A stretch of DNA of 61,340 nucleotides, counting the filler, from Hausera hauseri (taxonomy: Eukaryota): the NCBI GenBank assembly GCA_046269625.1. It is 9 parts of 9 records of this genome, joined end to end, with 100 filler letters (N's around TTAATTAATTAA, not from the genome) between each part and the next. Parts side by side here need not be neighbours in the genome. Positions count along the whole stretch, not along the records: positions 27,322 to 31,758 come from JBJURY010581778.1; 8 more parts are not named here. The stretch is one strand, 5' to 3'. The translations under genes were made by a program, and so were the position numbers. Of the stretch, positions 13,401 through 42,260 are shown one piece after another (the stretch's first letter is position 1; every line of letters starts with the position of its first letter). Under the pieces are notes generated by a model, which did not search any database, was not told where the DNA came from, and saw only the letters and a list, made by a program, of their open reading frames with translations.

Positions 13401-14849
13401 TCACGTGGGTCACAGGTGCCCATATCCAGCAGTCACAGTGCGAGGGGCGGGGTGCACCATGGACCAGTCGCAAGTCCATCACAGGTATTAAATTATCTAT
13501 AATTTAGCCTATAATAAATTATAAACTGGTACTTAATTGAGTGGTTGCATCCTCCGAAGTCCACATTCATCAGCCGTTTATATTACTGCCCCATAATGCT
13601 GTCCCAATGTATGGGCGCTTTCTCTTGTGGCCAATGAATGATTAGCTAAACCCTAATTATCTATTTTTTTAATTGCATATTGCTAAGGCTGTGGCCTCTG
13701 TTTGCTATGGTCTAGGCTGCGGCCCCTGAACTGAAATTAGCTAAGCTATATTGCGATATATAAATGAGCTTGGATGCTAAAGTAAAAGGTAAATGGCTAA
13801 AGCTGAGGTTCTCCCTCCATGAAGCAGCTCTGTTCTCCTCCATCCCCATTCTCAGTTGCAAGCTGAGTCATATCTGAATTCTCCTTCGTGTCAATTCACT
13901 TGCGTTTCATTCACGTAACAAGACTGAACATCAGATATTGTCCAATTCACCTTCAAGCTAAATACATCTCTAGATGGCAGCATCTGTGGGACAATATCTA
14001 TTATAAAATTTATAAAAAACTTAATCTACAGTATTTTTAGTCTTGTTTTTATTGTTGAAGTAAATGTTTATAAAATGTCTTATGTTTACACAGTAAAGTG
14101 TAACAAACTGGGAGGATAGACATGATGCCAACTCAACTACTAAAATAAAAAAATACAATTATAGCTACATTTTGTAGAATTAAAATAGCTTTAAAAAGTA
14201 CCTGGTTTATGAACTTCTGGTTTGTTTTCTGTCCCTGTTGATAAAACAAAAACAACATTCAAGGTATTTCTAAGTCATTATTAGAGCATTGAGTCAAAAA
14301 TATATAGTTTAAAATGAACCTGAAATTCTAACCATTCAATTGAATGATGACAGATTTCCGTGTGAAGCTGTATTTGTCTTTATCCGTAGAAACACGTACG
14401 TAGATTTTTTGATTTTCCTGAATGTTGGAGATTTCCAGACCGCAGTTTCCTTTGGTTTTATCACCTTTCAGAATGGTCTTTTTTTTGTAGTTTGGAAGCA
14501 CACAAGTCTCATTGGGGTGAAAAACAAATGCTTGCTTGTCGTTGTCATTCTTACTACACTCACTTTTCCCTCTTGTCTTCCAGTACACCTCTATAACTTG
14601 TTGGTCGGAGGGGTGGGTAAGGGTGCATGGTATCATTAGGTTTGAGCCCCTCGGTGTTGTAAAGTTACTACTGACTTCTATTGTCCAGGCTGCATCTGCG
14701 TTAGCAAACCAACAAAAAGTATGTCATTACTAAAGTTTGTACATCAGTCATATAAGTAAAACCAATTAATTTGCTCATTGTCACCCACCATTTGCACATG
14801 ATACCAAATTCAACACGAGAGTGAGCTCAGTCAGCTTTAGCATCCGCAT
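10457..14849 (-). CDS. Teleost single-V-set Siglec/CD33/PILR-like type I membrane receptor, ~282 aa; coding exons 14849-14789, 14695-14333, 14234-14202, 13317-13273, 13170-13053, 12250-12176, 11984-11906, 10531-10457
   Basis: All seven introns are GT-AG with consistent phases and the total is 849 nt. Signal peptide MRMLKLTELTLVLNLVSCA; V-set domain (W..IPC..VYW..GNCGLEI..IYVRV); Thr/Pro stalk; TM AVCIPVVALLIIITIGIIVFI; tail with YVNF, IYINI and SIYANM. Confidence 0.88.
11140..11270 (+). mobile_element. Fish V-SINE/HE1-like SINE 5' fragment (intronic)
   Basis: tRNA-like head (tggtggttagcact...gagtttgatcc) followed by the core ctttctgtgcagactttgcatgttgtccttgtggctgcatgggttttct. Confidence 0.65.
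13360..13485 (-). mobile_element. Fish V-SINE/HE1-like SINE 3' fragment (intronic)
   Basis: A ccatccat tail and the reverse complement of the typical 3' part (ctgtgatggacttgcgactggtccatggtgcaccccgcc...). Confidence 0.6.
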
Positions 14850-21293: not shown

Positions 21294-22997
21294 GAAATGC
21301 TTTAAAGCGAGAACGGTGGATAATAGTTCTCGATCAAACGTTGAATATCTGGTTTCAGGGGATGTTAGCTTGCGAGAGAAAAATTCTAGTGGTTGATTTT
21401 CTCCCTTGTAAATCTGGTAGAGTACAGCGCCTAATACAGTGATTGACTCGTCTGTAGTAAAGATGAGCTCTGCATCAGGCTTGGGGAAAGAGAGAATACC
21501 GACGGTCTTAATTCCTTCGCGTAGTTTATCAAATTTGTCAACCAATTCAGGTGTCCACTGGATTGGTTGATGTTTTTTGCCGCCGCTTAGGTGTGCGAAT
21601 GGTGCTGTTAATTCGGAGCAATATGGTACATATTTATGTACAAAGTGTAGTGTACTAAGGAAGCTGCGCATTTCGGTGGTTGTACGTGGCAACTGGATAT
21701 TTTTAAGAGCTTCGACTCGGTCTGGTTGGGGAGAATGACCGTGTGGTGAAATAACGTGGCCTAAAAAGTTAATGCGCTTTTGAAGAAATGGCATTTGTCC
21801 AAATTGACTTGGAGATAATGGTGGTTAAGACGTTGGAATATTGCGCGAAGGTGTTCCTCGTGTTGCTTGGCCGAAGATAAAACGACCAGAATATCATCGA
21901 TATAAGGGTGTACAAACGGGAAATCTGAGAGAATGGAATCAATGTGCCACTGAAAAGTTTGTGCAGCATTCCGCAAACCGAATGGCATAAACAGGTATTC
22001 ATAGAGACCAAAAGGAGTAGTGACAGCAGGTTTTTATATGTCTTTGGGTGCCACCGATATTTGATGATATGCTTTAGCTAAATCAATGGTCAAATAAATG
22101 GTGGTCGAATTAAGACAATGCAAGATATCCTTGATGAGGGGTAAAGGGTACGCATTCATGATAGTCAAGTTGTTCAGCTGTCGGTAGTCGCCACATGGTC
22201 TAAAAGTACCATTCTTTTTGTACAACGTGTAAAGGTGATGACCAAGGAGATTTGGAACGGCGTACTATGCCGGAACGTTCTAGTTCAAGAAATTCAGCTT
22301 CTACGGCCTGTCTACGACGAGGTGACAGAGGTCGTACATTTTGTCGTGTTAAACGTTGATGTTGTGTAACTATGCGGTGTAAAGTATTGCTTGAAGGAGT
22401 AAACGTACAATCTTTTTTAAGTACGCGTAAACATGATGTGTTGATGAATTGCTGTAAAGTTGTAGGTAACTGTGAGAGATTTGGTGGAAGTGGTGAAACA
22501 GCTTGAGTAGTAGCAAATGCTATTTGTAAGTTGTTTGGTGATGTGGAAAAGAATGGTATTTGGTTTAAGATGGTCGAATTGAAAATGGTGTTGGATGAAG
22601 TGATTTCGTCGAATGAATTAACGTTGGTGGTAGTACCAGAATTATCGACATAGAACCTCAATCGAATATTAATATTATTATTTAAAAATTTACAAAATGA
22701 GTTATTATTATGGAAATTCGAATTATTCATTGATTTTTTCAAGATTGACCTCCGCGTCTTGGTCGACTGCGCGGTAGTCGAAATGCTATTGACATGCCAA
22801 GAAATGTCGCCAGTGGTGCCGTTCCTCAAACATCGCTGACTGCAGTCAACCAATAAATTATAATGTGATAAGAAATCAAATCCTAGAATTGCCGTCTGGA
22901 CGTTAGTGACTGTGAACGTCCAGTGTAAGGGTGAAGGAAATTTTGGTAAGATGAAGTGCATTAGCCAGAGTTTGCCGTGACTTCTGGCGGCGAACAT
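21294..22997 (-). mobile_element. Ty3/gypsy pol (partial protease, RT, RNase H), degenerate
   Basis: Protease C-half (WTFTVTNVQTAILGFDFL); RT motifs SKSPWSSPLHVV, RPCGDYRQLN, IDLAKAYHQI, MPFGLRNAAQTFQ, YIDDILV and FLGH; RNase H TTDES..LGAVL and YSTFDRELL. The catalytic DTG half of the protease is absent. Confidence 0.95.
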
Positions 22998-24243
22998 AGT
23001 TTTTTTGAAAGGGTGAACTAAAACGACTATTAGAAGGAAAGGTAGTACGTCCGTCGTTCGTATTGGATTTGGAAGTGCAGACTGGAATGCACTTACGAGC
23101 TTGGTTTTAGAACCTTGCGCGGTAGATGCAAACTAGGGTTTTTTAGGAAAAACTGTTGTTATAAAATTTGCACCCTAGGCAGCACTTTTGAGCACTGGTG
23201 TTAAATATGCTGTGGTAATAACAGATCGACGAACGCGCAGGCGATGGTGAGCGGTTTCTAGACGCAGAACCAATGCGGTCAGTGACAAAATCCCCTCGGT
23301 GTAACAGAGAAAGTTCTTTTGATTTATTATTAATATTGTTGATTGTTGCGTGTAGTGCAGTATTTTCAGCACGTAGCTGATTAAGCTGTTGTTCTATTGA
23401 TGTGTTATTGGTTTGAATATCGTTAGCGGCAACTGCTGCCGAAACAATTGGTGTGGAATTTACGTGTAGAACGTCGTGTGTCCTATCGGCTAATTCGGCC
23501 AATTTCTCAAGAGGCGTGGAGTCCTCCACCACGGCAAGTAGGGCTCGGATTTGGATGGGTAACGCGTTAAGGAAGTAGTGGCGCAGTAGTTCTGGGTTTT
23601 GTTCTTTAGTGACGCCGAGGGTATGTAAATGTGCCAAAGAGGTGCGCAAGAATTCTGATGGTCGTTGCGTGCCTATAGCATTGTCATGGAAAAAACGTTG
23701 TATGATCGTGTCCATGGAGGGTTCTGTGATCTTAAGGACGGCGTTGAAGAGTTGGGGATATGGGTTAGGAAGTTCAGAGATTTCGATGATGTTGTGAATT
23801 CGTGTTTTGATGTTATTAGAAAGTAAGAAGAGAAGATTGTGTGCCTTGGTTAAAGAATCAGTAATATTATTTGCCTGTAGCCATAGTTGATAAAATTGCA
23901 ACCACGTTTTGCTAGAGGCTTGGTTGTCAATAAAGAATTCGGTGCACTGAGGGAAAGGAGCGGAAGAGGTCATAGGTGAGAGGTTGCTAGCAGGGGCAGG
24001 AATGGGTTTTTGAAGCAATATAACAGATTTTGGTTTCGTGGTGGTTTTATCTGTGATGTCTATGGTTGGTGATGAGTTCATGCCACCACGGGTATGGAAA
24101 TGTATGTGAAGACAAGTATGGTTTGAGAAAGATGGTAGATTTCCAGTGAGAGGTACTATAGATCCTTTATATGTGAGGTAAAAATTAGAAGAGTGAAGTG
24201 AGAAGGAGATAAAGTTACGAATGGTTGCAATATGTAAATGCAA
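22998..24243 (-). mobile_element. Ty3/gypsy gag (CsRn1/Kabuki-like) with an N-terminal ubiquitin-like extension and two C-terminal Zn knuckles
   Basis: Gag core (IGTQRPSEFL, FLNALPIQIRALL, LAELADR) and ICYYHSIFNTSAQKCCLGC. In frame past two stops is a second knuckle, VCIYRARF*NQARKCIPVC, then a CAAAAAAAC slippery-like site near 23000. Confidence 0.88.
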
Positions 24244-24439
24244 TGTAATGTACGTGTGTGTTTATTATTGAGAAAAAGAAAAATGAATAGGGAAGAGGTT
24301 ATGTGCCCGGGGGCGTGTTGTGGGGCTGACGCAAAAGGTGCCGTCTGGCCGACGGTGCAGGGTTAACGGCTGGGACCTCCGCCCCGCCGCGACGGGTCCA
24401 AAATTGCAGGGTGACCGACCTCCCCACCTGTATCGTTTT

Positions 24440-26549
24440 TTTGTCGATTACTATAGCATTTATTCTTTAATGTAAACGATGGTCTATTGTACATTAGTTT
24501 GGGCATAATTTCCCGTTCGATGAGCTTTGTGAAATACAGAGTAAGCGACGAATTATTAATTTGGGGATAGTCGAGACATTTTGACGTGCGAATCTTTTTC
24601 GTTTCATTACCATCATGAACTGCCATAAGTTTGAAGTAATTCGACGTTAATGCCACTCCATGCAATAGAGAATACAGTTTTTTCAATGATAACAAATTCG
24701 TTTTTTTAATATTTCCAGATATTCCTGGTATAAGACAACATTACTTTTATATCCATGAACAGACAATCAACTTTGGAGAGTCGTTAAACTTAAAGGTTTT
24801 TGATTGACTAAATGGTAAACCTTTTCAATGTGATTCGAAGAATCTTTTGCAAATTGCACAATAACATTTGCCGTGAAATCGGCCGGTGTCATTTCAATGG
24901 ACAAGTCAATGTTAGGACAACACCGCAATTGGGTAAATGATCGAATCATCATGAAATTAAAATCATCCTCATTGAATGCTGCATTGACGGAATCTGCAGC
25001 CTGGTTCCCCGATCGATAAATGATGATTGGATGACCTTTGGGAGACGATTTTGTAACCATTTGTTCTGTGATCCATTTCGTCTGACTGTAGCCACTTTTC
25101 AGTTGGTTCGCGTATTTTGATAAATCTGAACCTTCCTATCTTACGATATCGTGCGGGAAAACCCCATCTGTGCTGATGTAATGAACGGGTTTTATTTTTG
25201 AGTGACTAGAGAATATTATAATATTACATGTTCCCAGAACATTGCTGCTGTACAGTGCGGAATACGGATAGACAAGATTGATATAGGTGGCTGTATGGAT
25301 AACGTAATCAATTTCTGTTGCTAAGTAACGATAATCATCTTTACTAAGACTGAAATTAATCAACGATATATCACCTTTCACAAACTTCACTCGATGTAAT
25401 ATGAGATCATTCAGACTATCCCCATCAATTTTCAAAAAATTATACGACAGTAGAGTGTCAGTGAATCCCTTTTGAATCTCCACGGTGTTCTTCGAATTGA
25501 TATTCGTGATGCTCTCTCGAATAAGACAGAAAATATGGGACTCAGTGGACTTCAGTAATTCTGACACAAAAAATACTCCCAGAAATCCTGTCGAGCCCGT
25601 CGACAATACGCAGACATTCGTCAATCGAGTTTTGTTAAAGTTCGAAAATCTCCAGAAAGCTCAAAGTTGGATGTCGAGATCCGTATCATACTGACAGTGA
25701 TTGTCGACCTCCTTCTGCAAATCGACCTCTGGTACAAGATCAGGTAATCTGTTATCAATGACCCTCCCCATAGCACTCAATGTTGGATGATTATACAGAT
25801 CTTTAACACTCAATTTAATGTCGAATTTCTCATTTATGATATGCAATAATTTTGCCGCCAACAATGAGTCTTCTCCAAGATTAAAGAAACTTTCCTGAAC
25901 ATCGATGTTGTTTATTTGTGGAACATTACTCCAAATTTCCGACAGCTGTTTCTCTGTCTCAGTTTCTGGGAGAAAATCAGGCTGACACATGTGTAAGCCT
26001 CTGTTCAGTGGTGGAAGTGCTTTTTTGTTCAATTTACCCAACACAGGAAGAATTGGTAATTCTTTGAGGATTACAAGGAATGATGGTATCATATAAAATA
26101 ACAGTCGACGTTTCAGGTCGCCTCTAATTTGTTTAACGGGTGTTGGTTCGTTCAAGACAATGTAGGCAACAAGATATTTATCGTCTCCTTCTTGTCCACA
26201 TGTATTAACAACAGCAGTTTGGACGTATTTCACTCCGATAAGTGATTTTAATAGCGGCAATTTCCACAGAGTAGCCTCTGATTTTGACCATTGCATCGCA
26301 TCGACCACAGATTTCTAAGCTACCATCCAATAGCAGGTAGCCCCGGTCTGCTGTACGATACATTTGATTTCCAGCTTTTGCGTCTCCAAGTATGTCTTGA
26401 CTGTGTGGCAGGAACCTTTTTTTATTTAAATCAGGCTTTTTCGAGTAACCAAGAACAACAGTAGGACCATATACAAAGATTTCTCCTGTCATTCCCAGAG
26501 GCAAAAGTTTTAAATCTTCATCCAGGTTATCATTTAACGTATTTCTCAA
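24440..26549 (-). pseudogene. NRPS-like A-T-R(-R) reductase (ATRR/Lys2-like), intronless, frameshifted, truncated at both ends
   Basis: A-domain C-part (GEIFVYGPTVVLGY, MYRTADRG, GRCDAMVKIRGYSVE, GKLNKKALP); carrier domain FFNLGEDSLL; linker LDIQL*AFWR; thioester reductase (VLSTGSTGFLG, NVLGT, YISTDGVF, GYSQTKW, EMTPADF). Ends in LKNK/AIVI, resembling the start of a second SDR. Confidence 0.88.
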
Positions 26550-28059
26550 GCCTAACAGGAGACAGGAAGTGTCTGGGATGTATGAAAGTTGTTGAAAAGG
26601 TCAACGGATTCGCAAAGATCTTGATTAAGTTCTGGGTAGATAACTGAAAGATTTGGATGGAAAAAATTTGCGTTACAATCCGTTCTGGGGTGTGTTAATT
26701 TAATATAGGAATTAGTATAAGAGACAGGCAGGTAAGAGAAATCAGGTTCATTGGAGATTATTTCATTTATCGGACTATTCGCGTCATTTATCGACGGCTT
26801 GTAAACTTTTCTGAATTGCACATGAAAATGAATTCCCCGACGACGGAGTTTCATGCGCCCTATGTGTGATTGAATTTCAGACAACAGTTCGTACAGCTGA
26901 TCAGCCTGTGGTGTTCAGGTTAAGTCACTTGGCAGCATGCTGCAACAAACCTCACTGATCTAGGGAATATCTGTTAAGGAATCCCAATTGGTACCGTGCT
27001 GATCTTATGAAAGATCCGTTGGTAAAACTTGTTACGACTCCTTAAACAACATTTTGGGCAAACCTCTTCGTGATTAATTCATTGATTAAACTGATTTTGA
27101 ACCTTTTGTACATTTGAGATGAAATAAACCATTATCTTTTGTCCATTATCTTTTGTTGTAACATGTTAAGTCCCACATGATGGACATTCCTATTTTTCCT
27201 GTATTTTGTACAATTAATGTANNNNNNNNNNNNNNNNNNNNNNNNNNNNNNNNNNNNNNNNNNNNTTAATTAATTAANNNNNNNNNNNNNNNNNNNNNNN
27301 NNNNNNNNNNNNNNNNNNNNNCATATGTTGCAAGGTGTTGTTCCTGAAATTGCCAAAACTAAAATTCACTATGATGCTAAATATATTTTACAATAGATGT
27401 TTTATTCCTTAAATCTAAATCCTTATAACCATTATGTGCTCCTCACTCGGGGCACCAGAAAATGTTCTTGTATGCCAATGACACTTCGACGATTTTGTAT
27501 TTCCACATTCTCATTATCCGACTTCTTCGACATACTGAACATTTTATGGAAATTCTTATAGTAATCTGAGGGGTGAGTCCGTTTGGCGGTTTGGTAAGGT
27601 TACCCAGCGCCTATTCGATTTATTTAACATTGTTACTGGATTTTCCGTTAAGGCTTTTAGGAGTAGCTCCGATCTTTATATCTTCTATGATATTAACATT
27701 TTCGTTTGTAATATATGAGGGTTAAAATAAGGTATGGTATTAATTTCGATTCTGACCAGTGATATTCATCTATCTTAATCTTAACATGTTTATATCCCTA
27801 GTGGTTATGATATATTCCAACATAGGTTACCTAGTTAAGACTTGTGAATTCTTCGGTCCAATTATCCAATGATTTTTATCTACTTCGGAAGCATCAACAG
27901 TAATTTACGACTTGGTGATCTAGCCATTTCAAGAGACATTAATGGCGCTAGAGGTTCAATTCTAAGAACGACTTGCAAGGGAATTTGTCTTAGGAATGGG
28001 TTTAAATCTTTTGAAGATGGGTTCCAATTCTTAATTGAATGTTAAAAATGTGTGATTTA

Positions 28060-29300
28060 TGTTAAAAAATTAATATCTTTATACTCTCGCTGTTCAGGTA
28101 TACAACCAGGTCTACCTATTTTTTATTTCTCCACGAGTCCCGTTATGAACCATAAAACCTCAAAATCGGTCAGAAACAAGAATATAAAAACACAATTTTA
28201 AATCTTTGATAGGATATGGTCCAAACATATATACGGGAGGATTAGGGAGGTACGATTTTAATTGCCAACTAAAATTTTAGTCGTTTCAATTATTCACTTC
28301 CTAACAGTGATGATTCACATATCATATTTCCTCGAAATTGGTCCTTTCATGCTCATCAACTATTATCAGAAATAGGATTTGAGAACTCTTTAGTCATATT
28401 ACAGTAATCATAGAAGGCTAGATGTCACCGATAAAATATATAGAGATTCTTCGACAATGTGTAACTTTTATATTCTTTGAAGGTCCAATTCATGTTAACA
28501 ACGGAAATCCACTTCCCCCAAGGAATTTTACATCGAGCTCGCTTTCATTCATAGACACACTAATAAAAACAAGAATGTATACAATATGATATAGTGGGTT
28601 AAAATATTCCCAACAGTTTTGGCTGTTCGATCATCTAGAGATTCTATTCCAAGGTCGTTCTAAAGAAAGAATATACCGGAGGAGCTACGTGAGTGCACGT
28701 AATGATTGTGATACAATGATAACGCCTTTATCTGTCTATTATTCGAAATTACAAGCCAGGTCCGTTTGTACTTCATCTCTATTCAAATCCCTTTAAGGAT
28801 AATAGACTTTCAGTATCGGTCAGAAGCGATAATACAAGAGTATTGTCGGATACCAAAGAAAAATAACGTTAAAACACATATGAGAGGGAAGGCGGAGAAG
28901 CGCTGATTTAATTGGCATACATTACATACCTGAAAATTTAGTCATTTTACTATTAGTATTCCAATAGTGATTACTTATATATATCGTTCTTCTCTTAAAT
29001 TTATTTTCTCACACCTACTAATTAAAGATGAGATTGGAAGATTTTCTAACTACATCATAACAAATTTAGAGTATTAGATATTATAAATAAAGGATGCGAG
29101 GAATTTTGTTAATAGGTAAGTCTTCACTTTCTTCGGGGAATTTACAATTCATGACAATAACGAAGTCCCATCCTTGCATGAGATCCCCAAATCGATCTCA
29201 CTTCCATTTGACAACCAATATTGCTGGGTTACTGTTGGATGAATAGAAAACAAACTAACATATAAGGATAGATATAATACAATAATAAGATAAAATATCA
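28060..29300. repeat. Diverged ~650-660 bp tandem duplication (possibly a third copy upstream at ~27450-28000)
   Basis: Paired anchors tcggtcagaa (28166/28816), aaaattt(t)agtc (~28272/~28933) and caattcatg (~28487/~29145). No long open frame. Confidence 0.6.
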
Positions 29301-30500
29301 ACAATGAAAATTCTAAAATTTTGGTTAGATTCAGCAGGCAGGTAAAATATAAGGTAAAATATCAACAATCAATTTCTAAATTTTATTAATTATTGTGGGA
29401 AATAAATGATCTATTCCAAGTCGAAGAATACAGTCATCTAATTTGACCAATTTATTAGAAAATAAAATCAAATGAAATTCACCCATTTCATTCAATCCTC
29501 GACAATTTCAAATCCTTACCTCTTACTTCTATTATTACACACTTCGAATATACTGATTACTTACACCTCGTATTTTCAGATCGTATTGTTATAAACATCA
29601 AGCAAACACAGAAAGCAATTAATCGCTACCAAATCAGAGGTACATTCGATCACAGTTTAATACTTCTCTGAAATAAAAACGGCATCTGCTTTTCGTTTTC
29701 CGTTGAGATCTCCGTTCGTGTTAGTCGAATAAACCTATGACGTTTCTGCTATCACGAATCTATTTCAATCAAAGGTACCACTCTAAATCTGAGCGAATGT
29801 TCTGGTTTCAGGATATGAGCTTTATGAATATTACTGCCCTCACTTGATCACTTCATAATAAAAGACATACCTCCAACCAAATCAATTCATTAATTCTTAT
29901 TAAAATTCTTTTATTTTTACGACAAACAATTTACAATACAATCGATCAATAATATTGGTAATTTAACAGGTTATAATTTTTTCTAATTAAAAAATTTTTT
30001 ACCCTGCAACTCCCCGATTCTGGGTAGTATGTTGTCATTTGGAATTGGTAAATCATTTGGATGGTCATTACTATTCGTGCTCAATTCTGTATTCGATGAT
30101 CCAGATGGTGTTCGGACATTATTTGTTTTAGAGATATTGGAATTCATTGGTGACTATAATAATGTGATTTCAGTATAGACTCATAATACCCAATTTTCAC
30201 TCACCAGAGGAATGTTTGGTATTATAACTTTCGATAGAATTATGATTGCAAAGATTTGAGTGAGTCTTTTACGAATAATGTTGCTTATTTATAGTCAGAA
30301 TTCTATACAGCTGGCAATTTTCAAATTCAATTACCAGAATTCATATGTTTAAATCTTTATCGTCAAACCCCGTCAATCTGCGCAGACGGTAATTCCCAAA
30401 TTTATTTTCAAAACATCGATTTGTGCAAATGATATTTTCAATTTTAATTGTTAAATTTTGTATCGTTCGTTTATGCATGTGATGTTTTCTGATTCAATCC

Positions 30501-30625
30501 GAGATATGAATTCTCTAAAACATATGTTGTTTTCCTATTCAATTGAAATATGAATTCTTTAAAACATGAGATATGAATTTTCTAAAACATATGGTGTTTT
30601 CTTATTCAATTGAAATATGAAATAT
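30501..30625. repeat. 67-bp direct repeat (2 copies)
   Basis: gagatatgaatt(c/t)tctaaaacatatg..ttattcaattgaaatatgaa at 30501 and 30568. Confidence 0.75.
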
Positions 30626-30661
30626 TGCACTTTTTAATTCAAATTCGAATCAATTTATTAG

Positions 30662-30934
30662 TGTTCAAATTATCTTTTTTAAACCTAATTTCGGTTATTT
30701 TATTAGTGGATTCACAGGCGACTTACAATTAATCAGAGAATAAAAACGCCCATCACGGGGGCTTAACATATATATCGAAGCAAGTGAAGTCAAAAATGAT
30801 TTCGATTAAAATCAATTAAAGTGTCTCCCAAATAAATTGTCTCGAATTAAAGTCGATTAAAGTTCGATTAAAATCGATTAAAGTGTCTCCCAATTAAAGT
30901 GTCTCGAATTAAAGTCGATTAAAGTGTCTCAACA
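30662..30934 (-). mobile_element. 3' LTR (~273 bp) with internal short tandem repeats; PPT at 30935-30949
   Basis: Minus strand: PPT gaaaagggggagaaa, then TGTTGAGAC...TTTGAACA (TGTT/AACA ends). U3 has repeated gagacactttaat / cgactttaat units, then a TATATAT box and AATAAA. Confidence 0.75.
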
Positions 30935-31758
30935 TTTCTCCCCCTTTTCAAAAGGATTCGGTCCTCCGGATCACTCTGGGTACTGACATCGATGAAGCTG
31001 AGGTTTCTTGGTTTAATCGTCAAAGTTGCGTCGTTCACTGGGTTCATCCAATGGCATAATCTTTGGGTTCGGTTGTCGTAGGTGTAAGAGAAGTGGTAGT
31101 ATACTGATGGTTGTCTGCAATATGGACATGAAATACCGTTTTGAAAAGTCATCTGTATAGCGTTTTCTGGGTCAATCGATTTGAGAGATTGAGATCGAAG
31201 TTTGTTGAAACAGGTTGCGCATAATTTGTGATTACATTGGAATTGAACTACTGTTATTCTTTCGGTAAGACATATAGTACATTCATATGTAGGAAACTGG
31301 TCATAGTAGTGAGTTTGTAATGTTGCCCATAGATCAGGAGGGGCTAGGTCGCATATAAGATCAATTGGACATTTACTGAAGACAGGAAACCAATCTTCTT
31401 GTAAAGATATTGGTAATGGTGGGCTATAGGAAATGATTGGTTTGGGTATTATTGTAGGTACAAGTACTGGTAACTCGGGTAATGGTCTAGTAATTTGTTC
31501 TGGATGATAGCGTGGGTGTGGTATTGAAGACGGTTGTCGTAAGAGAGTCATTACATTAATGTGAGGTAAAGGTGTTTGAAGAACAATCTGTGGTAGTCTG
31601 GTTATTATAGAGGGGTCAAATCTATGGATTGGGAATTCTATTCTAACTGATGCTTGTTGTTCAAGTCGGAAGTATCTTGTTGGAAGTATTTGTGGAATTG
31701 GTGTGTTAGTGATGGTAAGGAGAGCTCTTCTAGGATGGTGGAAGTATGAGTAAATAAA
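30919..31758 (-). CDS. Pro-rich plus C3HC4 RING-finger ORF at the 3' end of an LTR retrotransposon (5'-partial)
   Basis: The frame is open from the contig edge (31758) to TAA at 30919. RING: CTICLTERITVVQFQCNHKLCATCFNKL...SCPYCRQ. The C-terminal KRGRNVETL* is encoded by the PPT/LTR junction. Confidence 0.8.
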   Translation of the reverse strand, partial: FIYSYFHHPRRALLTITNTPIPQILPTRYFRLEQQASVRIEFPIHRFDPSIITRLPQIVLQTPLPHINVMTLLRQPSSIPHPRYHPEQITRPLPELPVLVPTIIPKPIISYSPPLPISLQEDWFPVFSKCPIDLICDLAPPDLWATLQTHYYDQFPTYECTICLTERITVVQFQCNHKLCATCFNKLRSQSLKSIDPENAIQMTFQNGISCPYCRQPSVYYHFSYTYDNRTQRLCHWMNPVNDATLTIKPRNLSFIDVSTQSDPEDRILLKRGRNVETL

Positions 31759-31858
31759 NNNNNNNNNNNNNNNNNNNNNNNNNNNNNNNNNNNNNNNNNN
31801 NNTTAATTAATTAANNNNNNNNNNNNNNNNNNNNNNNNNNNNNNNNNNNNNNNNNNNN

Positions 31859-33140
31859 CATCTGGTGTTGGAACTGGAGTTAACGGAAAAGGGACAGGAC
31901 ATGTGTTATAGACATACGCAGCATTCGTCGCGTTGACGTACACAAAACATTGGTCGACAGGCTCCACAGTGGAAGTCGAAGATCCTTTGCAGTCAATTGT
32001 GGAGAATGTCTGTACATGTAGGCCATCCGAAGCACATGTCGCAATATAGGAAGAATCAATATTCGGAATACATGCACGCTGATTAAGAGTCACCTCTGTA
32101 CAGTCCTGACATTTCGAGTCGATGCATGCCTTCTGCTTGAACGAGGTATGCCGCTCAGCATGAGCTGTGGTTGCATCATATTTGAGCCCACATTGGTCCG
32201 TGCCTTTCTCCAACAATATGTAACCCTTCTCACCCCAATCGGCGCCCCATGAATTCTTTACAATCCAGTAGGGGGGATCATATGTGTCGTCAAAACCAAC
32301 AATTAGGACAGCATGGTCTTGCGAGATGCTTGTACAGTTTGTCATGATCCCACCTGTATAATAGTTCCATGAGTCTGCAGCAACTGCAATTGTAACTGGC
32401 CCATGCAGGAACACGAATGCTGCAATCTTATCCTCATCCTGTTCGAGTACAGAGTGTCCAGTGATGACTGCGCCAACAGGAAGTGAACTCAAGTTCTTTG
32501 GACATTGGGGTACGAAATTACCCCCACTGACGTATGGCAGACTGCTCTCACTAATAACTGCACCTTTCCGATACTTCACCAACCAATCAAACGCAGTTTC
32601 TTGATAACCGCTACTACAGCCATAATCCAGAATATCGCACGAGACAAGCTGCTGCTCAGACAACGATGTTAACGGATTGCCCGCAAGAAACCACTGACCC
32701 TCCATATTCCCGGTCGATCCAAACGCCCAGCAACTGCCACAGTTCCCTTGGTTCTTCACGGGAGTAACAGCACCCTTTTTGCGCCAATCGATCTTCTGTC
32801 CAGCAGCAGCGAATGCATCTTTCGCACTCAATCGAAGCACATTCTTCTTTCGCCGACTACTCCTTATATCCCTGGAAGAGCATTTGTGCATCCGCTCGAA
32901 TTCCTCCTCACTCCAGTCTGAAAATTTGTTAACACCAAACTTTGCAAGCGGGTTAGCTTTCGCGTGCTTCTCCATTCGTACCAGGTTCTTCTTGAAGTAC
33001 TCAAACCGCTTCAGTTCCTCCTCCTCACTCGCGTATTGCCGCTCGTACTCCTGCTTAAACCTTTCAAACATCATGTGATTGTCCACGGTGGCAACGACGT
33101 ATAAAATAACGAGTAACACAAATGCCAACTCAAGATACAT
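31859..33140 (-). CDS. Kinetoplastid-type cathepsin L-like cysteine peptidase (cruzipain/CPB family) with C-terminal extension, 3'-truncated
   Basis: Intronless. Signal peptide; I29 prodomain (ERFNIN-like, FGVNKFSD); QGNCGSCWAF, QDHAV and YWIVKNSWG catalytic motifs; Cys-rich extension (FKQKACIDSKCQDC..ACIP..TC..DC..QC..TC). Confidence 0.93.
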
Positions 33141-36100
33141 TATTACTCAAGGTTGTGTCGCGATACGTTCTCTCCGATGTGTATGTGTGATCCGCTATGA
33201 AATAAATTCGCACCTTGTATGGTGAAGCCCCCCTCTGAGCCTTAGCTTAAACAGACAATTATAACTTCAGTCCACTAATGAATAAAAAAGAAAACCACTT
33301 ACCCCTTCCTAGTAGATAAAAACAGTGAAAAATAGATTAATGTTATAAGACTCTTGTATCTGCTAATGCTTGAATGTCTGAGACAGCAATGAAATGTAAA
33401 CAGTGATAAAAAATGGGCAGGTCGTTAACGATATCATATCAAAAACAAAAAAAACCAAGAAAAATAAGTGAGTCACTTCATTGTGAACGTCAGCAACAAC
33501 AGAGAAAATGAGAGTGTGGACATCAGCAACTCCTCAGAGACGTGTTAGTCGAACATCGATGTACGCAATAAAGTAACGTACACGGCTAAACACGTCATCA
33601 TGCATCAAGAAATTGTGGATGAGACCTTTTCATCCCAACACAATCCACAGATTACTTCATCATTGCAAGCAATACAAGTCACAACTGCCTTGAAACCAAA
33701 ACGCAGTCAGACATACAAGTGACGTATATACAAGTGTATTTTGAACTTCTTCAAAGAACAGAAACTCCGCTCACAGCACTCATCTGTATTAGCCTCGTGC
33801 ATCTCACAGCGCCAGCAAATATTCCTTCCCCTCTCTGGGATAAGGGATGTGTTACGTCACACAGTGTAGTGCTTTCCATTTTAATGACCTGTTCACAATA
33901 TTCACATTAACACCCACAACACAGATGCAACCATAACATAAGGAAAAAATGGATGCACACATCCAACACAGTCACAGTAGCGCTATCGATGAAGTGTGTC
34001 CAACGCACCATCATGGTACGAATCTTTGTAATAATGCGTCTCAAAATCACATGCAACACGAAACCGCGCCCGGTACCAGCGGATTATTGGCTAACAATGC
34101 AGAGATACGCATCCCTTAGCGCACACAAAACAATACAACAAAACACCGCATTGTTCAAGAATCCCAGTACACTAATTCCACGTCAGAATGCTTGACGCTT
34201 GAGCTGGTGCGTTGCCTGGCAAAACCAGTACTCTTTAAAGAGATGCCACGTTGCCGAGCTCGACATCCAGAGCCATACATAAAAAATATCAGCTGCGCAA
34301 TTAGTATTAGTAATGATCGAGCAACAACAACGGGACGCGGTAATATAGTCGCTGTATGCGGTTGTGACACTGATGCTGGTGCCGTCCTGTTCCTCTTCAC
34401 TCTATGGGTTCTTATGAAATCTCGACTGCTGTTCGCAGCGATCGTGTGCCACACACTAACATAAATAAACATTTTTTTTTGTCTGGCCATGGCATCGTGA
34501 CATAAGGTTGTGTGTTGCATGTAGTAGCTTTCGTGCATAGATTGTCTCATGAATCAGTGTCAATTCACAGCTGAATGATGCGCGGTACATGTGCTGCAAC
34601 ACTTGCCAATACCATACTCTCTGTGCATTTGTCATTGTAGTTGTTGATCACTGACACGGAGAATACTGTATCAACAATAATCATGTGGACTGCATCGCTC
34701 TGTCGCATGAACGCTTGCGGACAGGTGATGGTACATGTGCAAATGTTCCAGGTCACCAATGTCCCAAGAGAAAACAACCAATCGCTTCAGTTAGCAGCAT
34801 CACAAGCGATAAACAGCTGCTGCGTCGTTGCGTTTGCTGCGCTGCTGTTGGCAGTTCATTTTGAGAATAAAACTCCGTCGCAAAGAAGAATTTGTCATCA
34901 CACGTTCCTCTGGGGTCACTATTGCAGACATCGGACCATGAGAGAAGACAAGATAGAACACACGCATAGCAATATAGAAAGACCTCTCAATAAACCATGA
35001 ACAAGTGAACAGGTTGTCAACATACATACAGCATTGTCTTAGTCCTTCATTAGGTTGAATGAATTAATGGACCACATACTAAACGCCGAAAGCAACATAT
35101 GAACAATAAACATATAATATTGGCTACGTACGTTACCGCACTGTATTCGCTATCGTAATTAATACGGCCAGGCAATATGCGAAAATGTGCATGTGTGAGA
35201 CAAAGGCGGGAGTGATTGAGTTTGTGGGAACACAAATGGTGCCAAAATAACACCTGCAATAATAGGCTTTGAAAAGGGTTTGAGCTCCGCGCAAAAAATG
35301 ATTACCATCAGTTCAGGTTGGTAAGAATCAGCCCTACACACACATGATATTTCCATGCCTTGTATGAATGGTACAATCTTGTTATGATCATCGGACAGAT
35401 TTTCTTGTGAGGAAACGCTCACCAAGCAAAATGCTTGTTGAACAGGAGCTTTCAACTGCTGTGTTGGCTCGTTGATCGTGACGCCGCACTGAACAGAGAA
35501 CGACAGGGTAATCTTCACCACAGTAACAACATACTTCGACATGGCGTCGGCGAGTATGTTACTAACAACCAGACGGTGTCACAATCACCCTCACAGGCGC
35601 ACGCATGCGTCGTAATAAAACCCGAATGAAAGCACCATAATCATCTCAAGTTTATGAAAAGCATTTCAAAGCATGAAAATAAACCGATGGACTTGAATTC
35701 ATTGACATACTACTCGATGGCGCCCAAAAGGTTCAACAGACGACGAACATTGCAACGTGCACAATTGGAGCCATTAAAATAATTCTCTAACACAGGCGAA
35801 AACAAAGGCACACATGTCACATTGGATGCACAATAGTCGCTTGACTTTCTCCCGCTGACGTGAATGCGCCAGAAGCCTTCACAAATTATGAACGCAAACG
35901 TTGTCAAGACGCATCAACAACCCTCATAACCATACGCTTGATCGCCATCATCCAATCCAACTAATCAAAGGCAGCGAGGATCCAAGCTCCAAGCCGCATC
36001 GATGATCATAACGTTCCATGAAGTAGATAAACAACAATTACAGAACATGGAATACAACCATGGATCGTAACTGTGACAACCGAAGGCAATTGAAACTTTG

Positions 36101-39100
36101 CGAGCGCATATGCACCTGTCCGACAACTATGTAGAATTTTCCGGAAAAGCAGCAATGAGTAACAGTTTCATCTCCACGGAATGCTTGCAGTTGATGGAGC
36201 TAGCTGGGCCTCATGAGAGGGGCTTCTCTGTGGTGAGACTGGACGGCGTCCGTGTGGCAGTGGCGAACTCCTTCAACTCGGTTCACGGCAAGCTTCATTC
36301 CCCACTCGTGAGGACATAGTGTCGAATACTGAGCCCTTTGTTCCAGGCGTTATTTCTTTGACGACGGCCACTGCAGCAGCAAACTCTGCGCTCCCACTCC
36401 CAGAGTCAGACTTGCCTTTCTGTATGATTGCGCATCTTAAGGTAGGCAGTCATTCAAGTCTTGAAAGACTGGCAACGCTCTCCGCTGGGAACTCTACGCA
36501 GGCGAGACATATTTATTTCGCGAGAGACGAAGACAGAGAGTGAGAACTTGGATGAACAGATCAACTCTTATGAGGGGAAGAAATATGAGCTAACTGTTGA
36601 TGGAAATAACATGCACCCCGGGGTTAAGATCATAACGTGAGGAGAACTAACGCGCCAACAAAAAGCCGTCATTAATGTATTCTACATGTTGCGCGGCTTA
36701 CTTCACATCGCATAATAACTGTTTTGTTTCCAGACAAATACAGACAATTTTGGGTTCTTGGCTTTTTCTTGCATACAAATGTGAGGGTGGCAATCTGGAC
36801 GGAAGTAAAAAGATTGGAGGACTGTATTGAGAGCATGCGAACAGACTGATCTTGTATGTGACCATGATGCGCAAACAGTGTCACATAACTGTTCGAACCT
36901 TCAAACTACAAACCAACAAAGACGTATAATTAGTGCCTAGATGAAGGTGGTGCAGTCACACTCATGAAGTAAATTTTGCCGTCAGCTAAGGGGCGGTTGA
37001 ACTTGGTCATGCTCATTCACCGAAATCAGATACACGATTGAGCACTCATCTACAGCCAAAGAATTACAACAGCACATTATGGCTGCTGTGTGCAAACGTC
37101 TCTAAGGAATGTCAAAAGATCACTTTGTGATCGTCACCGATAGTCTGTAGTACAGGATGCCAAGGACCAACATATGGCTGTGACGCCAAGAGAAAATGCA
37201 AGCTTTCTCCTACAGAACTCGCAGTTACGCAGTCATGCCGACGCCCTCTGAGCTAAGCGAAAAATAACTGCTGTTCACATGCAAGGAGATCTCGGATGAC
37301 AGTGCCATTCGTGAGTCAGTACAGCTCTCCAAAAACCAATGCGCTTATGAAACAAAGAAGAAAAACAAGTTAGATTAAAGCAGAAAAGGCTGAAGAACAG
37401 AAACTGTTGAACAGTAAAATTCTCATGGCACTATGGACAAAAATAAATAGCCGGAAGAGTTGTTGAACGCTGCGGATACACATTTGTAAAACCCCGTGAC
37501 GTGCGTATGGCGTTTGTACCTTTTCAATGATGCTAGAAATGGAGGCAGACAACATATCTATCTTCCAAGGGGCACATGAGCAGTCTTCAGGGACACTTTG
37601 CACAGCTCTACAGATCGTCAAATTAGGTGGGAGTGTTCACACTAAACTTCGCACTGTCCTTGAACAGGACGAGAACTTGCCAGCCATAGTGCCTAGAAAG
37701 GCTTCAATTGTTTACCCAGGCAGGGGCGTGTTCGTTAGTGGCGCTGAATTTGCGACAACTGGCAATGACAGGCCTTCAGGAACAGCAGCTCAAACATTAG
37801 CGGCTGAATTCTTGGCGCCGCCATAGATGCAGTCTTGATGCTATGAGGCACATCAATCATCCTGTGAGCAAGACGCCACGCGCCACGCCCATGAAGAATA
37901 CATCGAGGAATACAGACAGGAAGCCGCATCAACCATAACGAGCACGATGACACTAAACACGGCAGCAGAACAACAGAAAGGTTCTTGTCGCGGCCATGGC
38001 ATTGCTCCAAGCCCCTTGCTTCTCCAAGGCCTTCACCATCTCAGAAATCCCGTTTGTTGCAAACACGTTACAAGACCGAAGCTGAGCAATATCGATGCAG
38101 CTTCTAACAGCGGCCTGTGACACTATGCGGTTTTACTGGTTAAGCGATTCTGCGTGTCCCACTTAGGGTTCACTGTGAGTAACATGATCCTCGGAACTGC
38201 GTAACCGAGCGGAGTTTGATGCACTTCCTCTGTTTGTGTGCAGAGGGAGATGCAGCACCTGTGCGTCGAAGATAGCCCAGTTGAGTGCCCTTTGTCGATT
38301 TTGAACAGTGAGGCGCTGATCCTGCGGGCGTTTGCCTGAGAGTCGCATCACACGCATGCACAGACAAAAACAGGGTGGGGGTCAGACATGATGTGTCTAC
38401 ACTCAAGGGGTTACATGATGAAACCAAGATCCAGCCGCGCACAGTTAAGGAGTATGGCACTTGCTGGCCATCATTTTCATCCTGCATAAAGGACTGTTTA
38501 ACCCTAGGATGATCACCGGCAACAAGCAGGTACAAGGAAAGTGAGAGTACGAAAGAAATGTAAGACGTTTGAGATTAATGAACATTGCTTTGTTGCCCCT
38601 CAAATGCGGTAAACCGTGTGGCCGCTCTGTTGGCGATCAACAGACTGTATAGCATTTGCCTGTCACGTTGGCCATATTAGATCAGCCAACAGAGCAGTCT
38701 CCCCAAAGTAGAGGTTGAACTGGCAATGCGTGACTGTTAAGCTGAAACTAAAATGTTCATTTGTATGCTCTGTAGATGTTGTGAAGGCATGCGACTACAT
38801 TTCTCGTTGGTTGCACTGAATGAGCACATGTCAGCTATGGCGCTTTTCTTAGATTAATGGCATTTCTCAAGGGGAGGCATCGAACTGGCATGGGCAGCAT
38901 GTGTGACAATGAACGATACACTCTACTCATTCCAAACCAAGGTTGGTCGCTAGCAAAGGCCAAGTCGCATCATCAATACTTAACGTTGCATTAGACGCAC
39001 CCGTCCGCCAATTTTGCCGTACATCGCATATTTTATCCTGGTGATTTGGCATTGCCCGCATATTATTCACTCACGCTACAAGTGTATTTTGAAGTGACAT

Positions 39101-41989
39101 ATGAAGCCTTCCTGGGTATGAAGTTTGACATGTCCGCAATGAAAATTCAAGGAAAGGTAATACACACAACAACAAAAGTCGGGAACACGACTCATGACAA
39201 GCATCTAAATAAGGTGAAAACGTTCTCCAGCTGTGAGGCTAATATTCAACGAAGGAGACTCGCTGAACATTGCTAGTCACAGAAATGCTGGGAAATAGCC
39301 ATTCAGAAGGGGAATGGCCGTTGCCCCTTCCGGGAGGGGAAGGTGCAGTCCTCAACGGACGACGGGTCTGATCGAGAAAACGGGATGGAACAGCCAGCAA
39401 GGGCAACAGAAGTCGGAACGCATGCTGAGACACTTCAGTTCCGACATTTAGACCTTCCACAGGGGCAAAAAGTTGGAGGCTCGCGCTTCCCGTCCTTCAA
39501 GCACAACAGCATTTTATACACAAGACACAATCTGTTTATTCAGACTCTCCACTAGCAAGGAGCGGAGGCGCGCTTTCCCACTAGGAAATAAGGTAAATAA
39601 ACAGCAAGCTGCGATCATTGCAGAGCCTCAAAGATAAAAACTTTCACGAACAGACACAAAGGAAAAAAAAACAGTCTGACAAGGAATTCAAAAAAGGCGT
39701 TTAATCGCCCTTCAAACACATAACAATTGCCAAGAATGTTGTCCCTTAGTTGTTAAAAACAAGCAGATAGAACATGCAAGCTCATTCAAAGATTTGTGTA
39801 TATACACACATTAGGGTCAAATAATCTATGACATCCAGAGGATTCAACTGTGTAAAGGTGATTCAACTCTGCAGTTAGCTTCGCCATGCGTTTTGCAATA
39901 AACGCGCGCGAGTGAAGACAGCGGTTCATATATGCAATGCGACACTCAATCGCGCAGCGGTGCTCGGATGACAAATTGGAGACACTTATGGGATGAGTGC
40001 GGGGAGGATCGACAAGCACACAACGATACTTCCTTTGCTGTCAGACAAAAATACTCAGAATGAGCAATACTGCGTCAGGAAATTAACATCTTCCTGCACC
40101 TCTAGCTCTTGAGAAAGCTCACAGCACATCAATCACGCATACACGTGATAGCCAAACACCGCATACAATTCACCCAAAGGTTTCTACAACACACACCCAG
40201 AAATTTCTTCTCACTACACAGCTGTTTATGAATGAGGCTAATATAATTGGCGCATTAGATTCTCAATAGTTTACCTTCTCTCTTCAATAATAAGAGATTC
40301 TAAAACTATGTATACCACAATGAAAACAAGAATGGAGGGTGAAATAGAATGGAAGACCCAAGCCGAACGTTTATGAGGACACTACAAACACGAACGATAG
40401 ACAACACACTGTGTTTCTGGCGTGGACAACAGTCCGTAGAAAAAGCAAGATCAAAATGGTGTGAAGGGTAACAATCCGCAACCACACATCAGCCGCTAAC
40501 GCGTTCATCATCCAATAGATACCAAGAAAGACGGCATTTCACGGAACATCGCAGAAGGCAATGGGACGAAACAGTTGGATTATTTCACTTCCTAGTAAGA
40601 TCACCTTGAGAACAAGCTTTTGTTTCTTCTGTTAGATTTACCCTACGGACATCGCAAGCCTATGATACTAAAAACTTCATTCGAGAAGACACGAAGAATT
40701 GCAGATAAACAACAAAAGTCAAGACAATGCGTCTCATTGCATATGAAAAAACACAGTATAACATCAGCAGGTTACAATATGGAAAAGACTTTATTGTAGT
40801 AAAACCAAATTTGTCCTTGTATTTTATTTATCTTCTGTTGCTTTTTTACGGCTTTCTTGCTTTCTGGTGCGCAAGAATGTTCACATAAAAGATGTTATTT
40901 CTTATCCGACTACATCTCTGAGTTAATTCGTGTTTGCGAAAGTTTTCATAACTAACCAAGTATCCTGGTTCAGATTACCGGTTGAATGCAAACTGTTTTA
41001 AAAAACTGTGGATCGCTGATTCTGTTTGATGTTACTGTACCTGTGTCAGGGCGACAATCCACTAAGGTAGAGCAGAGATGAAAAAAAATAAAAAAAGCAG
41101 GATAAATAGACAAAAAAAAAAAAAAAAAAGAGCAAAATAATGTGAAACTGCGCACAAGCATCACTCCCGGGATACTGCTACTTGTCTGGCCATTTTCTTA
41201 CTGCATTCACGAATGTTGATGATACCCCGACATGTGTTCATATCCTATACAATTACTGCAGTGATCCCATTTGCTTCGCTCTGTGGCTCTAACCATGATG
41301 CATGTTTCTGCATAAAAGGTCCTTCCATTCCATCCATTAGGTCAATTTATTGGGAAAAGTAAAATAATCCATATAAATACCGCATTTTGACTTGGAAAGC
41401 ATTCAAATACTTCTCATCCTGTCCATTCCACGGATTCTACTGAGAAAGGCACACATAAAAAATAGAACCCTACTGAAGCGTTCATATACTATCCGATCGA
41501 GAAAACAAAAGTAAAAGAGATAAATGTGCATAAATATTAGTAAATACTAAGGAATAAATATAGGATTAATAATCTGAAACCACTAAACAATAACCAAACC
41601 ATTAGAGTGCGGCGCGCCTCATCAGACCTGACATGATTTCTTGATGGATTACTCGAGCCCTTATTATCAGTGGCATTATTTATTTCTTCTATCATCAAAG
41701 AGAATATGATCTTTCGTGATTATGATGACGATACGGATCGGCAATTGTGTGATTGCTCTCTGCTTGGTCCCGCGATCAAGATTCAGCTGATACAACATCG
41801 TCGTTAATCGCCTGAAGTGCAAATGGGAGCAAATGAAACCCATACTGGCCATCTATACGTAGGTTCAGATAGCAGCAAGAATGCCTGTGATGCCCATCAG
41901 AATTGTTAGATGCATTGCAACTGTCAATAGCTCTACAAATGATATCGTTGTCATCGCATGTGTTGTTGTTGTCGTCACAAAAAATTTTT

Positions 41990-42260
41990 CATCCTGCTGC
42001 CGTGTTATGGAGTGTACAGTTCCATGTTACAAGAGTAAATAACACATGCCAATACCCATCTCTAGTCTCAGCGAACACTTCTTGAACAATGTTCTGCACA
42101 GTGGCCGTTTTCATAACCGCACTGAGGGAGAAGTGCTACGCTGTTGCCAACATAGAAGTCGACATATGGAACAGGAAAATTAATGTTGCTTCCGTTCGGT
42201 AACAGAGCACTTCCATCAGTTTGTGAAAAGGGAATGATAGTGTACTTAATATCATTATTA
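41990..42260 (-). pseudogene. Agmatine deiminase/PAD-family C-terminal fragment
   Basis: PVPYVDFYVGNSVALLPQCG resembles ASYVNFYIAN..IILPQFG. After a frameshift, HGTVHSITRQQ resembles GGNIHCITQQ, with the catalytic Cys replaced by Ser. Confidence 0.65.

What the first reader, a model, noticed from the sequence alone, without database searches (positions are those of the whole stretch)
30662..31758. LTR retrotransposon ending in a C3HC4 RING (E3-ligase-like) ORF that reads through the PPT into the 3' LTR
Seen: an uninterrupted ORF of at least 279 codons (Pro/Ile-rich, then CxxC-x11-CxHxxCxxC-x24-CxxC) ends KRGRNVETL* across gaaaagggggagaaa|TGTTG. This is the same way the integrase ORF at 2-184 ends (KRGM*). 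What looks like a host RING gene is therefore element cargo in the position of env or a chromodomain. Its lack of stops, unlike most neighbouring elements, suggests a young or selected copy. Inference: an element-encoded E3 that might degrade a host silencing factor, analogous to viral RING ligases such as ICP0.
Basis: partly seen in the sequence, partly recalled or inferred. Interest (0 to 1): 0.7.

Follow-up and report, generated by a model that had tools for sequence, protein, structure and literature searches.

The report
Triple-RING gene carried by retrotransposon
A highly repeated DNA element, likely an LTR retrotransposon, keeps an intact gene for a RING zinc-finger protein right up against its end, and this protein is predicted to be a ubiquitin ligase that would help the element spread by tagging host proteins.

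Summary
The ORF (279 open codons, minus strand, cut by the contig end at 31758), its C3HC4 RING and the purine tract followed by TGTT are real. It is not a single-copy host gene. In run X1, 6,396 contigs lie on this contig, summed depth over the ORF is about 470 times the flank, and similarity among copies breaks at 30931, four bases past the purine tract. Of the 25 listed copy differences, 16 are synonymous against 6.8 expected. Relatives show two more RING-like domains upstream, giving a roughly 430-aa triple-RING protein with no membrane segment.

Corrections: the RING loop is x27, not x24. The proposed LTR end at 30662 is unsupported. The read-through tail differs between copies, so it is incidental. 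No pol, 5' LTR or target-site duplication could be reached.

Best reading: the 3' accessory gene of a high-copy LTR retrotransposon, likely an E3 ligase. Its target is unknown. My literature searches found RING domains in gag, and other cargo at the env position, but no RING there.

The parts
30919..31758 (-). 3' part (279 codons plus stop) of a multi-RING ORF, cut by the contig end; relatives indicate at least about 145 further residues upstream with two more RING-like domains
   Evidence: open frame; P0001 63% and P0002 56% identical, extra Cys clusters
31285..31758 (-). Conserved segment after RING2, followed by a Pro-rich linker (residues 1-158)
   Evidence: 17% Pro; 45 of 60 and 38 of 65 residues identical to P0001
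31114..31281 (-). C3HC4 RING (C160-C214) followed by Arg215, the likely linchpin position
   Evidence: Pfam; spacing; 8 zinc ligands, Pro and Arg invariant in all 12 rows of A4
30985..31113 (-). Best-conserved stretch of the ORF (residues 216-258), predicted beta-rich; candidate substrate- or partner-binding part
   Evidence: 36 of 43 and 29 of 43 residues identical to P0001 and P0002; strands in a low-confidence model
30935..30949 (-). Polypurine-tract-like run of 15 nt; the length of its G-run differs among copies
   Evidence: one-base length variant at 30939 in all four runs (table 4)
30931..30934 (-). TGTT, likely LTR start; last bases shared by most copies
   Evidence: loose ends at 30931 in 57 contigs of X1, 7 of X2 and 2 of X4; an X3 piece also stops there
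30662..30930 (-). Low-copy LTR-like segment of this copy, with a 62-bp x2 tandem repeat (30801-30925), a GC-rich motif near 30745-30775 shared with other copies, a TATA-like site (30774) and AATAAA (30704); far end not established
   Evidence: joints 30768/30769/30775 to 30919 in 4 contigs of X1
30476..30708 (-). Degenerate tandem repeats (45-bp-spaced pair 30631-30708; 44/23-bp units 30476-30626) that run across 30662 and suggest the LTR extends further
   Evidence: unit-number variants in other contigs (tables 5 and 5c)

Best explanation
This is the 3' end of a very high-copy element, likely an LTR retrotransposon, whose last ORF encodes a protein with a C3HC4 RING (three RING-like domains in relatives) that likely acts as an E3 ubiquitin ligase helping the element. 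Shown: the ORF belongs to a large repeat family, ends at a purine tract/TGTT junction where copy similarity breaks, is kept under purifying selection and has no membrane segment. Inferred: (i) it is a separate ORF3 behind pol, in the env slot; (ii) it is likely made from a spliced subgenomic RNA, because called starts fall at three different places inside RING1 and no initiator Met is shared; (iii) RING3 would recruit a host E2~ubiquitin, while the conserved beta-rich tail or RING1/RING2 would bind a substrate; (iv) the substrate would be a host restriction, silencing or cell-death factor whose removal lets the family amplify. Step (iv) has no direct evidence.
For: Repeat nature: 6,396 contigs laid in X1 and 794 in X2. 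Summed depth is 24,500-42,000 over five ORF bins against a median of 66 over 21 flank bins, ratio about 470 (X2 about 270). The tool warns this is no copy number. Boundary: loose ends at exactly 30931 in X1, X2 and X4. Their continuations resemble each other (15 of 15 nearest letters X2 versus X4, 12 of 15 for X1, compared by eye), as expected of diverged LTR starts rather than random flanks. All 4 of the 7 family proteins that reach the C-terminus end across the same tract (P0001, P0002, P0004, P0007). Selection: 16 of 25 listed differences are synonymous, expected 6.8, reached in 0 of 5,000 simulations; none makes a stop. Stand-alone size: no relative longer than 425 aa among 153-744 aa candidates, none at 745-2125 aa, and none longer in the no-index search. 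RING: all 8 ligands plus the Pro and the Arg after the last Cys are kept in P0001, P0002 and P0004. An Arg linchpin is the catalytic hallmark of RING E3s (PMC12326332, passages; its position in the motif is recalled). No membrane segment (max KD19 1.03-1.34), so not env.
Against: No gag, pol, 5' LTR, primer-binding site or target-site duplication was seen: the contig ends inside the ORF and no flanking DNA of relatives could be fetched. The proposed LTR end is unsupported, and this copy's LTR-like segment is not the majority one. The 25 differences are only those shown inside the ORF out of 40 displayed rows, with 534 more rows hidden, and they are biased to the best supported. Runs X2-X4 may hold traces of the same DNA as X1, and X1 may be the window's source, so they are not independent. 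The 'longer' search is weak by its own statement. Starts were called by an unknown gene caller, so (ii) is soft. Structure models were unusable (pLDDT 27.6) or low (54) and gave no fold match at E <= 0.001. RING2 lacks the His ligand and a basic residue after its last Cys. Many RING-like zinc fingers are not ligases (established knowledge).
Confidence: 0.5

Rival explanations
1. A non-autonomous LTR element whose only intact ORF is the triple-RING gene; it borrows gag/pol from a partner family, and the RING protein is its contribution or is simply what selection kept.
For: No pol-fused or neighbouring pol was found. Many different LTR starts follow the same ORF.
Against: Absence of pol was not tested on DNA: nothing upstream of RING1 could be read. 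Purifying selection on the ORF fits autonomous elements equally well.
Confidence: 0.2
2. The RING array is the C-terminal extension of the pol polyprotein, in the chromodomain position, and steers integration by reading or ubiquitinating chromatin.
For: The ORF ends across the purine tract as integrase ORFs often do (2-184 here). The called start of P0001 lies inside RING1, so the frame may extend upstream.
Against: P0001 is called as 425 aa on a 19,467-bp contig, and P0004 and P0003 share that start. No 745-2125 aa relative was found (weak), and none in the no-index search.
Confidence: 0.12
3. Not an LTR element: a different mobile unit (DNA transposon, Polinton-like or endogenous viral element) or an amplified host gene family, with the purine tract/TGTT junction being that unit's end or a coincidence.
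For: Similarity among copies ends only 4 bases after the tract, as it would at an element terminus. The nearest outside look-alikes are small unnamed RING proteins (E about 5e-4 to 9e-4) and Atlas clusters of DNA viruses (scores 0.84-0.90, leads only).
Against: What follows 30931 is related between runs and partly shared with this copy's segment through joints, not random flank. A 15-nt purine run directly before TG is the textbook LTR junction (established knowledge), and only 2 such motifs lie in the 61-kb window. An intronless 840-bp frame on thousands of contigs is not typical of a host gene.
Confidence: 0.1
4. The element reading is right, but the protein is a non-catalytic zinc scaffold that binds the element's RNA, capsid or a host partner.
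For: RING2 is atypical. An arenavirus Z-type RING cluster appears among Atlas look-alikes of residues 90-200 (0.86, lead only). No confident RING fold was obtained.
Against: RING3 keeps Ile before the second Cys, a hydrophobic helix, Cys-Pro-aromatic-Cys and the following Arg in all 4 copies that have it; these are recalled as E2-contact positions.
Confidence: 0.08

Closest known systems
LTR retrotransposons with a captured non-env ORF3 behind pol (bdelloid rotifer Vesta/Juno: GDSL lipase, DEDDy exonuclease; PMC5408684, abstract and passages)
   Same: A host-like enzyme gene sits in the env slot before the 3' LTR.
   Different: The word RING does not occur in that paper's main text. There the pol link is shown; here it is not. 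Here the cargo is a triple-RING protein on thousands of contigs.
Burro/GYPSM1 giant gypsy elements of planarians (PMC6431247, passages)
   Same: A high-copy animal LTR element with ubiquitin- and apoptosis-related domains (AIR1 'RING Zn-finger', MATH/TRAF, BIR, SUMO-like), proposed to meddle with host systems.
   Different: Those domains lie in a ~4,900-aa polyprotein or an upstream accessory ORF, not in a terminal RING ORF at the purine tract. No sequence link to Burro was tested.
Osvaldo/Isis-like gypsy and Pao elements with a RING finger annotation (PMC3630058, passages)
   Same: A RING-annotated zinc finger inside an LTR retrotransposon.
   Different: A single finger in gag or the polyprotein, not three in a 3' ORF. 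That Pao fingers are usually read as PHD fingers is recalled.
Orchid gypsy elements with an extra AlkB ORF (PMC9289625, abstract and passages)
   Same: An extra ORF with an enzyme domain, kept across subfamilies and proposed to counter host control.
   Different: A plant element with a demethylase whose activity was shown in vitro; here a RING with no assay.
Viral RING E3 ligases such as herpesvirus ICP0 (recalled, not from a call)
   Same: A C3HC4 RING plus a Pro-rich low-complexity region in a genetic parasite.
   Different: No sequence relationship seen. ICP0 has one RING and known substrates.

Membership tests
LTR retrotransposon (Ty3/gypsy or Bel/Pao type) | Polypurine tract directly before a TG-starting 3' LTR | tested here: met
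   15-nt tract plus TGTT; copy similarity breaks at 30931 with related continuations
LTR retrotransposon (Ty3/gypsy or Bel/Pao type) | Dispersed, multi-copy family | tested here: met
   6,396 contigs laid in X1, depth ratio about 470; 7 proteins in 4 clusters. Dispersal itself was not mapped.
LTR retrotransposon (Ty3/gypsy or Bel/Pao type) | Complete LTR with TG...CA ends | tested here: inconclusive
   Start supported; the end at 30662 cuts a duplicate and has flank-level depth
LTR retrotransposon (Ty3/gypsy or Bel/Pao type) | Matching 5' LTR, primer-binding site and target-site duplication | not testable with these tools
   Contig ends at 31758; no genome held; no second copy in the window
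LTR retrotransposon (Ty3/gypsy or Bel/Pao type) | gag and pol (PR-RT-RH-IN) upstream | tested here: inconclusive
   No loci of relatives in the viral, metagenome or genome collections; no fused protein
env-bearing retroelement (errantivirus-like ORF3) | ORF3 is a membrane fusion glycoprotein | tested here: not met
   No hydrophobic 19-mer above 1.34 in 4 of 4 proteins; Pfam finds RING families and no env family
C3HC4 RING finger | Eight zinc ligands in C3HC4 spacing | tested here: met
   C160, C163, C175, H177, C180, C183, C211, C214; two Pfam families at or above cut-off
C3HC4 RING finger | Cross-brace RING fold | tested here: inconclusive
   Model pLDDT 54; best viral match a RING protein at E 0.03; no PDB match at E <= 0.001
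RING E3 ubiquitin ligase | Basic linchpin residue and E2-contact hydrophobics | tested here: met
   Arg215 and the preceding Pro are invariant in A4; role from PMC12326332 passages; positions recalled
RING E3 ubiquitin ligase | E2-dependent ubiquitin transfer | not testable with these tools
   Needs a bench assay
XB3/XBAT31 plant E3 ligases (best Pfam E-value) | Score above the family cut-off; ankyrin repeats (recalled) | tested here: not met
   33.6 bits against a cut-off of 50; no ankyrin hit

The most novel reading that the evidence does not exclude
An animal LTR retrotransposon family has replaced env with its own triple-RING ubiquitin ligase, uses it to destroy a host silencing or restriction factor, and has thereby risen to the order of a thousand copies: a retrotransposon counterpart of viral anti-defence ligases.
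Probability: 0.25. Interest if true: 0.78.

Novelty: new variant of a known kind. Interest (0 to 1): 0.52.

Why it matters
Transposon-encoded counter-defence proteins are much discussed but few are identified in animals. A selected, catalytically plausible RING ligase at the 3' end of a hugely amplified element gives a concrete protein to assay: its substrate would name the host factor that restrains the element. It also warns that RING genes annotated in such assemblies may be element cargo. Captured ORF3s and ubiquitin-related domains in LTR elements are already known, which limits the surprise.

Tried and rejected
No own genome is held. Within-window blastn found no second copy of any part of the contig, and the junction motif occurs once. 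The search for related loci found nothing in viral contigs (120 pattern hits, none confirmed), metagenome contigs (175 hits each, none confirmed) or prokaryote genomes (42 hits, none confirmed). A short motif scan of viral contigs gave 30 loci; 0 of 30 had a tblastn hit. No relative of 745-2125 aa was found among 3,161 candidates (weak). In the no-index search 7 proteins passed E 0.001: 3 are family members, 3 are generic small RING proteins, and P0008 is a repeat artefact and was dropped. PHROGs: 0 of 4 proteins matched. PDB sequences: only TRAF6 RING at E 0.08-0.09. Atlas look-alikes scored 0.90 or less and are leads only. AlphaFold gave pLDDT 27.6 for the full protein and 54 for RING3 plus tail; fold searches were uninformative. 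No tRNA or Rfam match in the contig. No RNA holder was listed. No earlier scan findings were returned. CERV of Cer1 was checked as a possible RING precedent and is not one: 'ring' there means ring-shaped multimers (PMC10309623, passages). Rejected: a 273-bp LTR ending at 30662; a function for the read-through tail; an env identity; XB3/XBAT31 membership. No complex prediction was run.

Full report
Setting. The window is nine contigs joined by N spacers. The feature lies at the end of the contig 27322-31758 (33% GC), and no genome is held. Other contigs look trypanosomatid, possibly vertebrate, or like AT-rich animal repeat DNA, so the assembly is mixed. That the element belongs to the AT-rich animal component is an inference.

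Observation. The minus-strand frame 31758-30919 is open for 279 codons and ends LLKRGRNVETL*. A 15-nt purine tract at 30935-30949 precedes TGTTG; a scan for such motifs found 2 in the whole window. The ORF at 2-184 ends the same way but belongs to an unrelated contig.

Is it an element? Ten public runs hold part of the stretch; I laid the best 4 of the 10 on the whole contig. In X1, 6,396 contigs were laid, most 90-99% alike. Summed depth is 24,500-42,000 over the five bins wholly inside the ORF, against a median of 66 over 21 bins from 27766 to 30873. I left out the three bins at 27322-27765 (554, 515, 151) and the mixed bin 30874-31021. The ratio is about 470, and about 270 in X2. Near-identical pieces of this very copy have depth 13-19, which would put the family in the order of a thousand or more copies. 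The tool warns that summed contig depth is no copy number, so I use it only as a sign of a very large family. X2-X4 may carry traces of the same DNA, and X1 may be the source, so they are not independent. Similarity among copies ends at 30931: 57 contigs of X1, 7 of X2 and 2 of X4 have loose ends there, and an X3 piece stops there. The continuations are mixed in X1 (agreement 0.53) but related between runs (15 of 15 nearest letters X2 versus X4, 12 of 15 for X1, by eye). That fits diverged LTR starts better than random flanks. Four X1 contigs join 30919 onward to 30768-30775 with different sequence between, so this copy's LTR-like segment has a few relatives.

The LTR's far end. The proposed end at 30662 is not supported. 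It falls inside the second unit of a 45-bp-spaced duplicate (24 of 33; 0 of 600 random flank 33-mers reach 24), AACA occurs 27 times on that strand, and depth there is at flank level. Further tandem repeats continue to 30476. A TATA-like site at 30774 and AATAAA at 30704 fit a compact LTR but are common in AT-rich DNA. The far end, the 5' LTR, the primer-binding site and the target-site duplication stay open.

The protein family. Searches found 7 unnamed ENA proteins in 4 clusters: P0001, P0003, P0004; P0002; P0005, P0006; P0007. P0001 is 63% and P0002 56% identical to the window ORF. They extend upstream with a Cys-only RING-like cluster (in 5 of the 6 proteins examined; P0003 ends inside it) and an N-terminal RING. 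The full product is thus about 430 aa: RING1, RING2, Pro-rich linker, RING3, conserved tail. All 4 of the 7 that reach the C-terminus end across the same tract, as GEKC (P0001, P0002, P0004) or GRNVRVC (P0007), against GRNVETL here. The tail therefore follows the varying length of the G-run (table 4) and is incidental. P0005 and P0006 stop in the linker and P0007 is out of frame for most of its length, as expected of decaying copies. Called starts lie at alignment columns 1, 13 and 35, within RING1, so no initiator is shared. I infer a short upstream limit and likely splicing, but this rests on an unknown gene caller. No longer or pol-fused form appeared (one search is weak by its own statement), and no flanking DNA could be fetched. 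No membrane segment is present, so this is not env.

Selection. Of the 40 difference rows displayed, 25 fall in the ORF (534 further rows were not shown). Fifteen are at third positions (p = 0.006) and 16 are synonymous, against 6.8 +/- 2.2 expected; 0 of 5,000 simulations reached 16, and none makes a stop. The family has kept this ORF under purifying selection; the sample is biased to the best-supported rows. The stretch just after RING3 is the most conserved (36 of 43 and 29 of 43).

Mechanism. RING3 keeps all eight ligands, the Pro after the seventh and the Arg after the eighth in all 12 aligned rows. An Arg linchpin stabilises the closed E2~ubiquitin state in RING ligases (PMC12326332, passages; the motif position is recalled). 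I commit to an E3 ligase made from a 3' accessory ORF, binding its substrate through the conserved tail or RING1/RING2 and removing a host factor that restrains the element. The repeat nature, junction, selection and motif are shown; pol linkage, splicing, activity and substrate are inferred. Structure prediction did not help: pLDDT 27.6 and 54; the best fold match was a viral RING protein at E 0.03, with none in PDB at E <= 0.001. Atlas look-alikes were mostly DNA-virus RING clusters at 0.90 or less, a lead to a possible viral origin and no more.

Comparison with what is known. Non-env ORF3 capture is documented in rotifers (PMC5408684; abstract and passages; no 'RING' in the main text) and plants (PMC7264820, one passage; PMC9289625, abstract and passages). 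RING-annotated fingers are reported in gag of Isis-like/Osvaldo and in a Pao element (PMC3630058, passages), and ubiquitin-related domains in Burro (PMC6431247, passages). Nine retrotransposon-directed searches (listings seen, seven papers in all opened as passages, none read whole) showed no RING ORF at the purine tract. The library lacks most subscription journals and Repbase, and I opened no supplements. The Calliphora supplement and the primary Burro descriptions could bear on this, so absence from print is not established.

Verdict. A real, selected, triple-RING cargo gene of a very high-copy element that is likely (about 0.8) an LTR retroelement. It is a new variant of a known kind, with the pol link and the ligase function untested. 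Interest 0.52. The boldest reading not excluded, a retrotransposon-encoded anti-silencing ligase in place of env, has probability about 0.25.

Noticed in passing
window 31859-33146 (-): Intronless cathepsin L-like protease with I29 prodomain and DUF3586 extension; the best solved relatives include cruzain/cruzipain. It points to a trypanosomatid contig, so the window is a mixed assembly.
   Followed up: partly
window 14328-14723 (-): V-set immunoglobulin exon (Pfam E 3e-4, below cut-off) that looks vertebrate-like by recall; a possible third organism in the sample.
   Followed up: no
window 5819-7309 (+) and 51074-51643 (-): Two contigs hold Monjiviricetes-type fusion glycoprotein remnants. 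In the first, the remnant lies just upstream of a retroviral-type protease, an env-before-pol order like that described for Burro (PMC6431247, passages). Both are in pieces.
   Followed up: partly
window 21294-24261 (-) and 24767-26600 (-): Gypsy-type gag (DUF7041, weak) and RT/RNase H next to a fragmented carrier-protein/thioester-reductase (NRPS-like) gene.
   Followed up: no
window 27322-30873: The flank is itself low-copy repeated: a paralogous 1,523-bp contig at about 88% covers 27980-29548 with skips, and depth rises to about 550 at 27322-27617. A much longer LTR reaching the far contig end is not excluded.
   Followed up: partly
window 15908-21193: A T-rich contig whose frames repeat the same peptide motifs, apparently a long tandem repeat.
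   Followed up: no
window 60699-61340 (-): Integrase zinc-binding and core domains of another LTR element.
   Followed up: no
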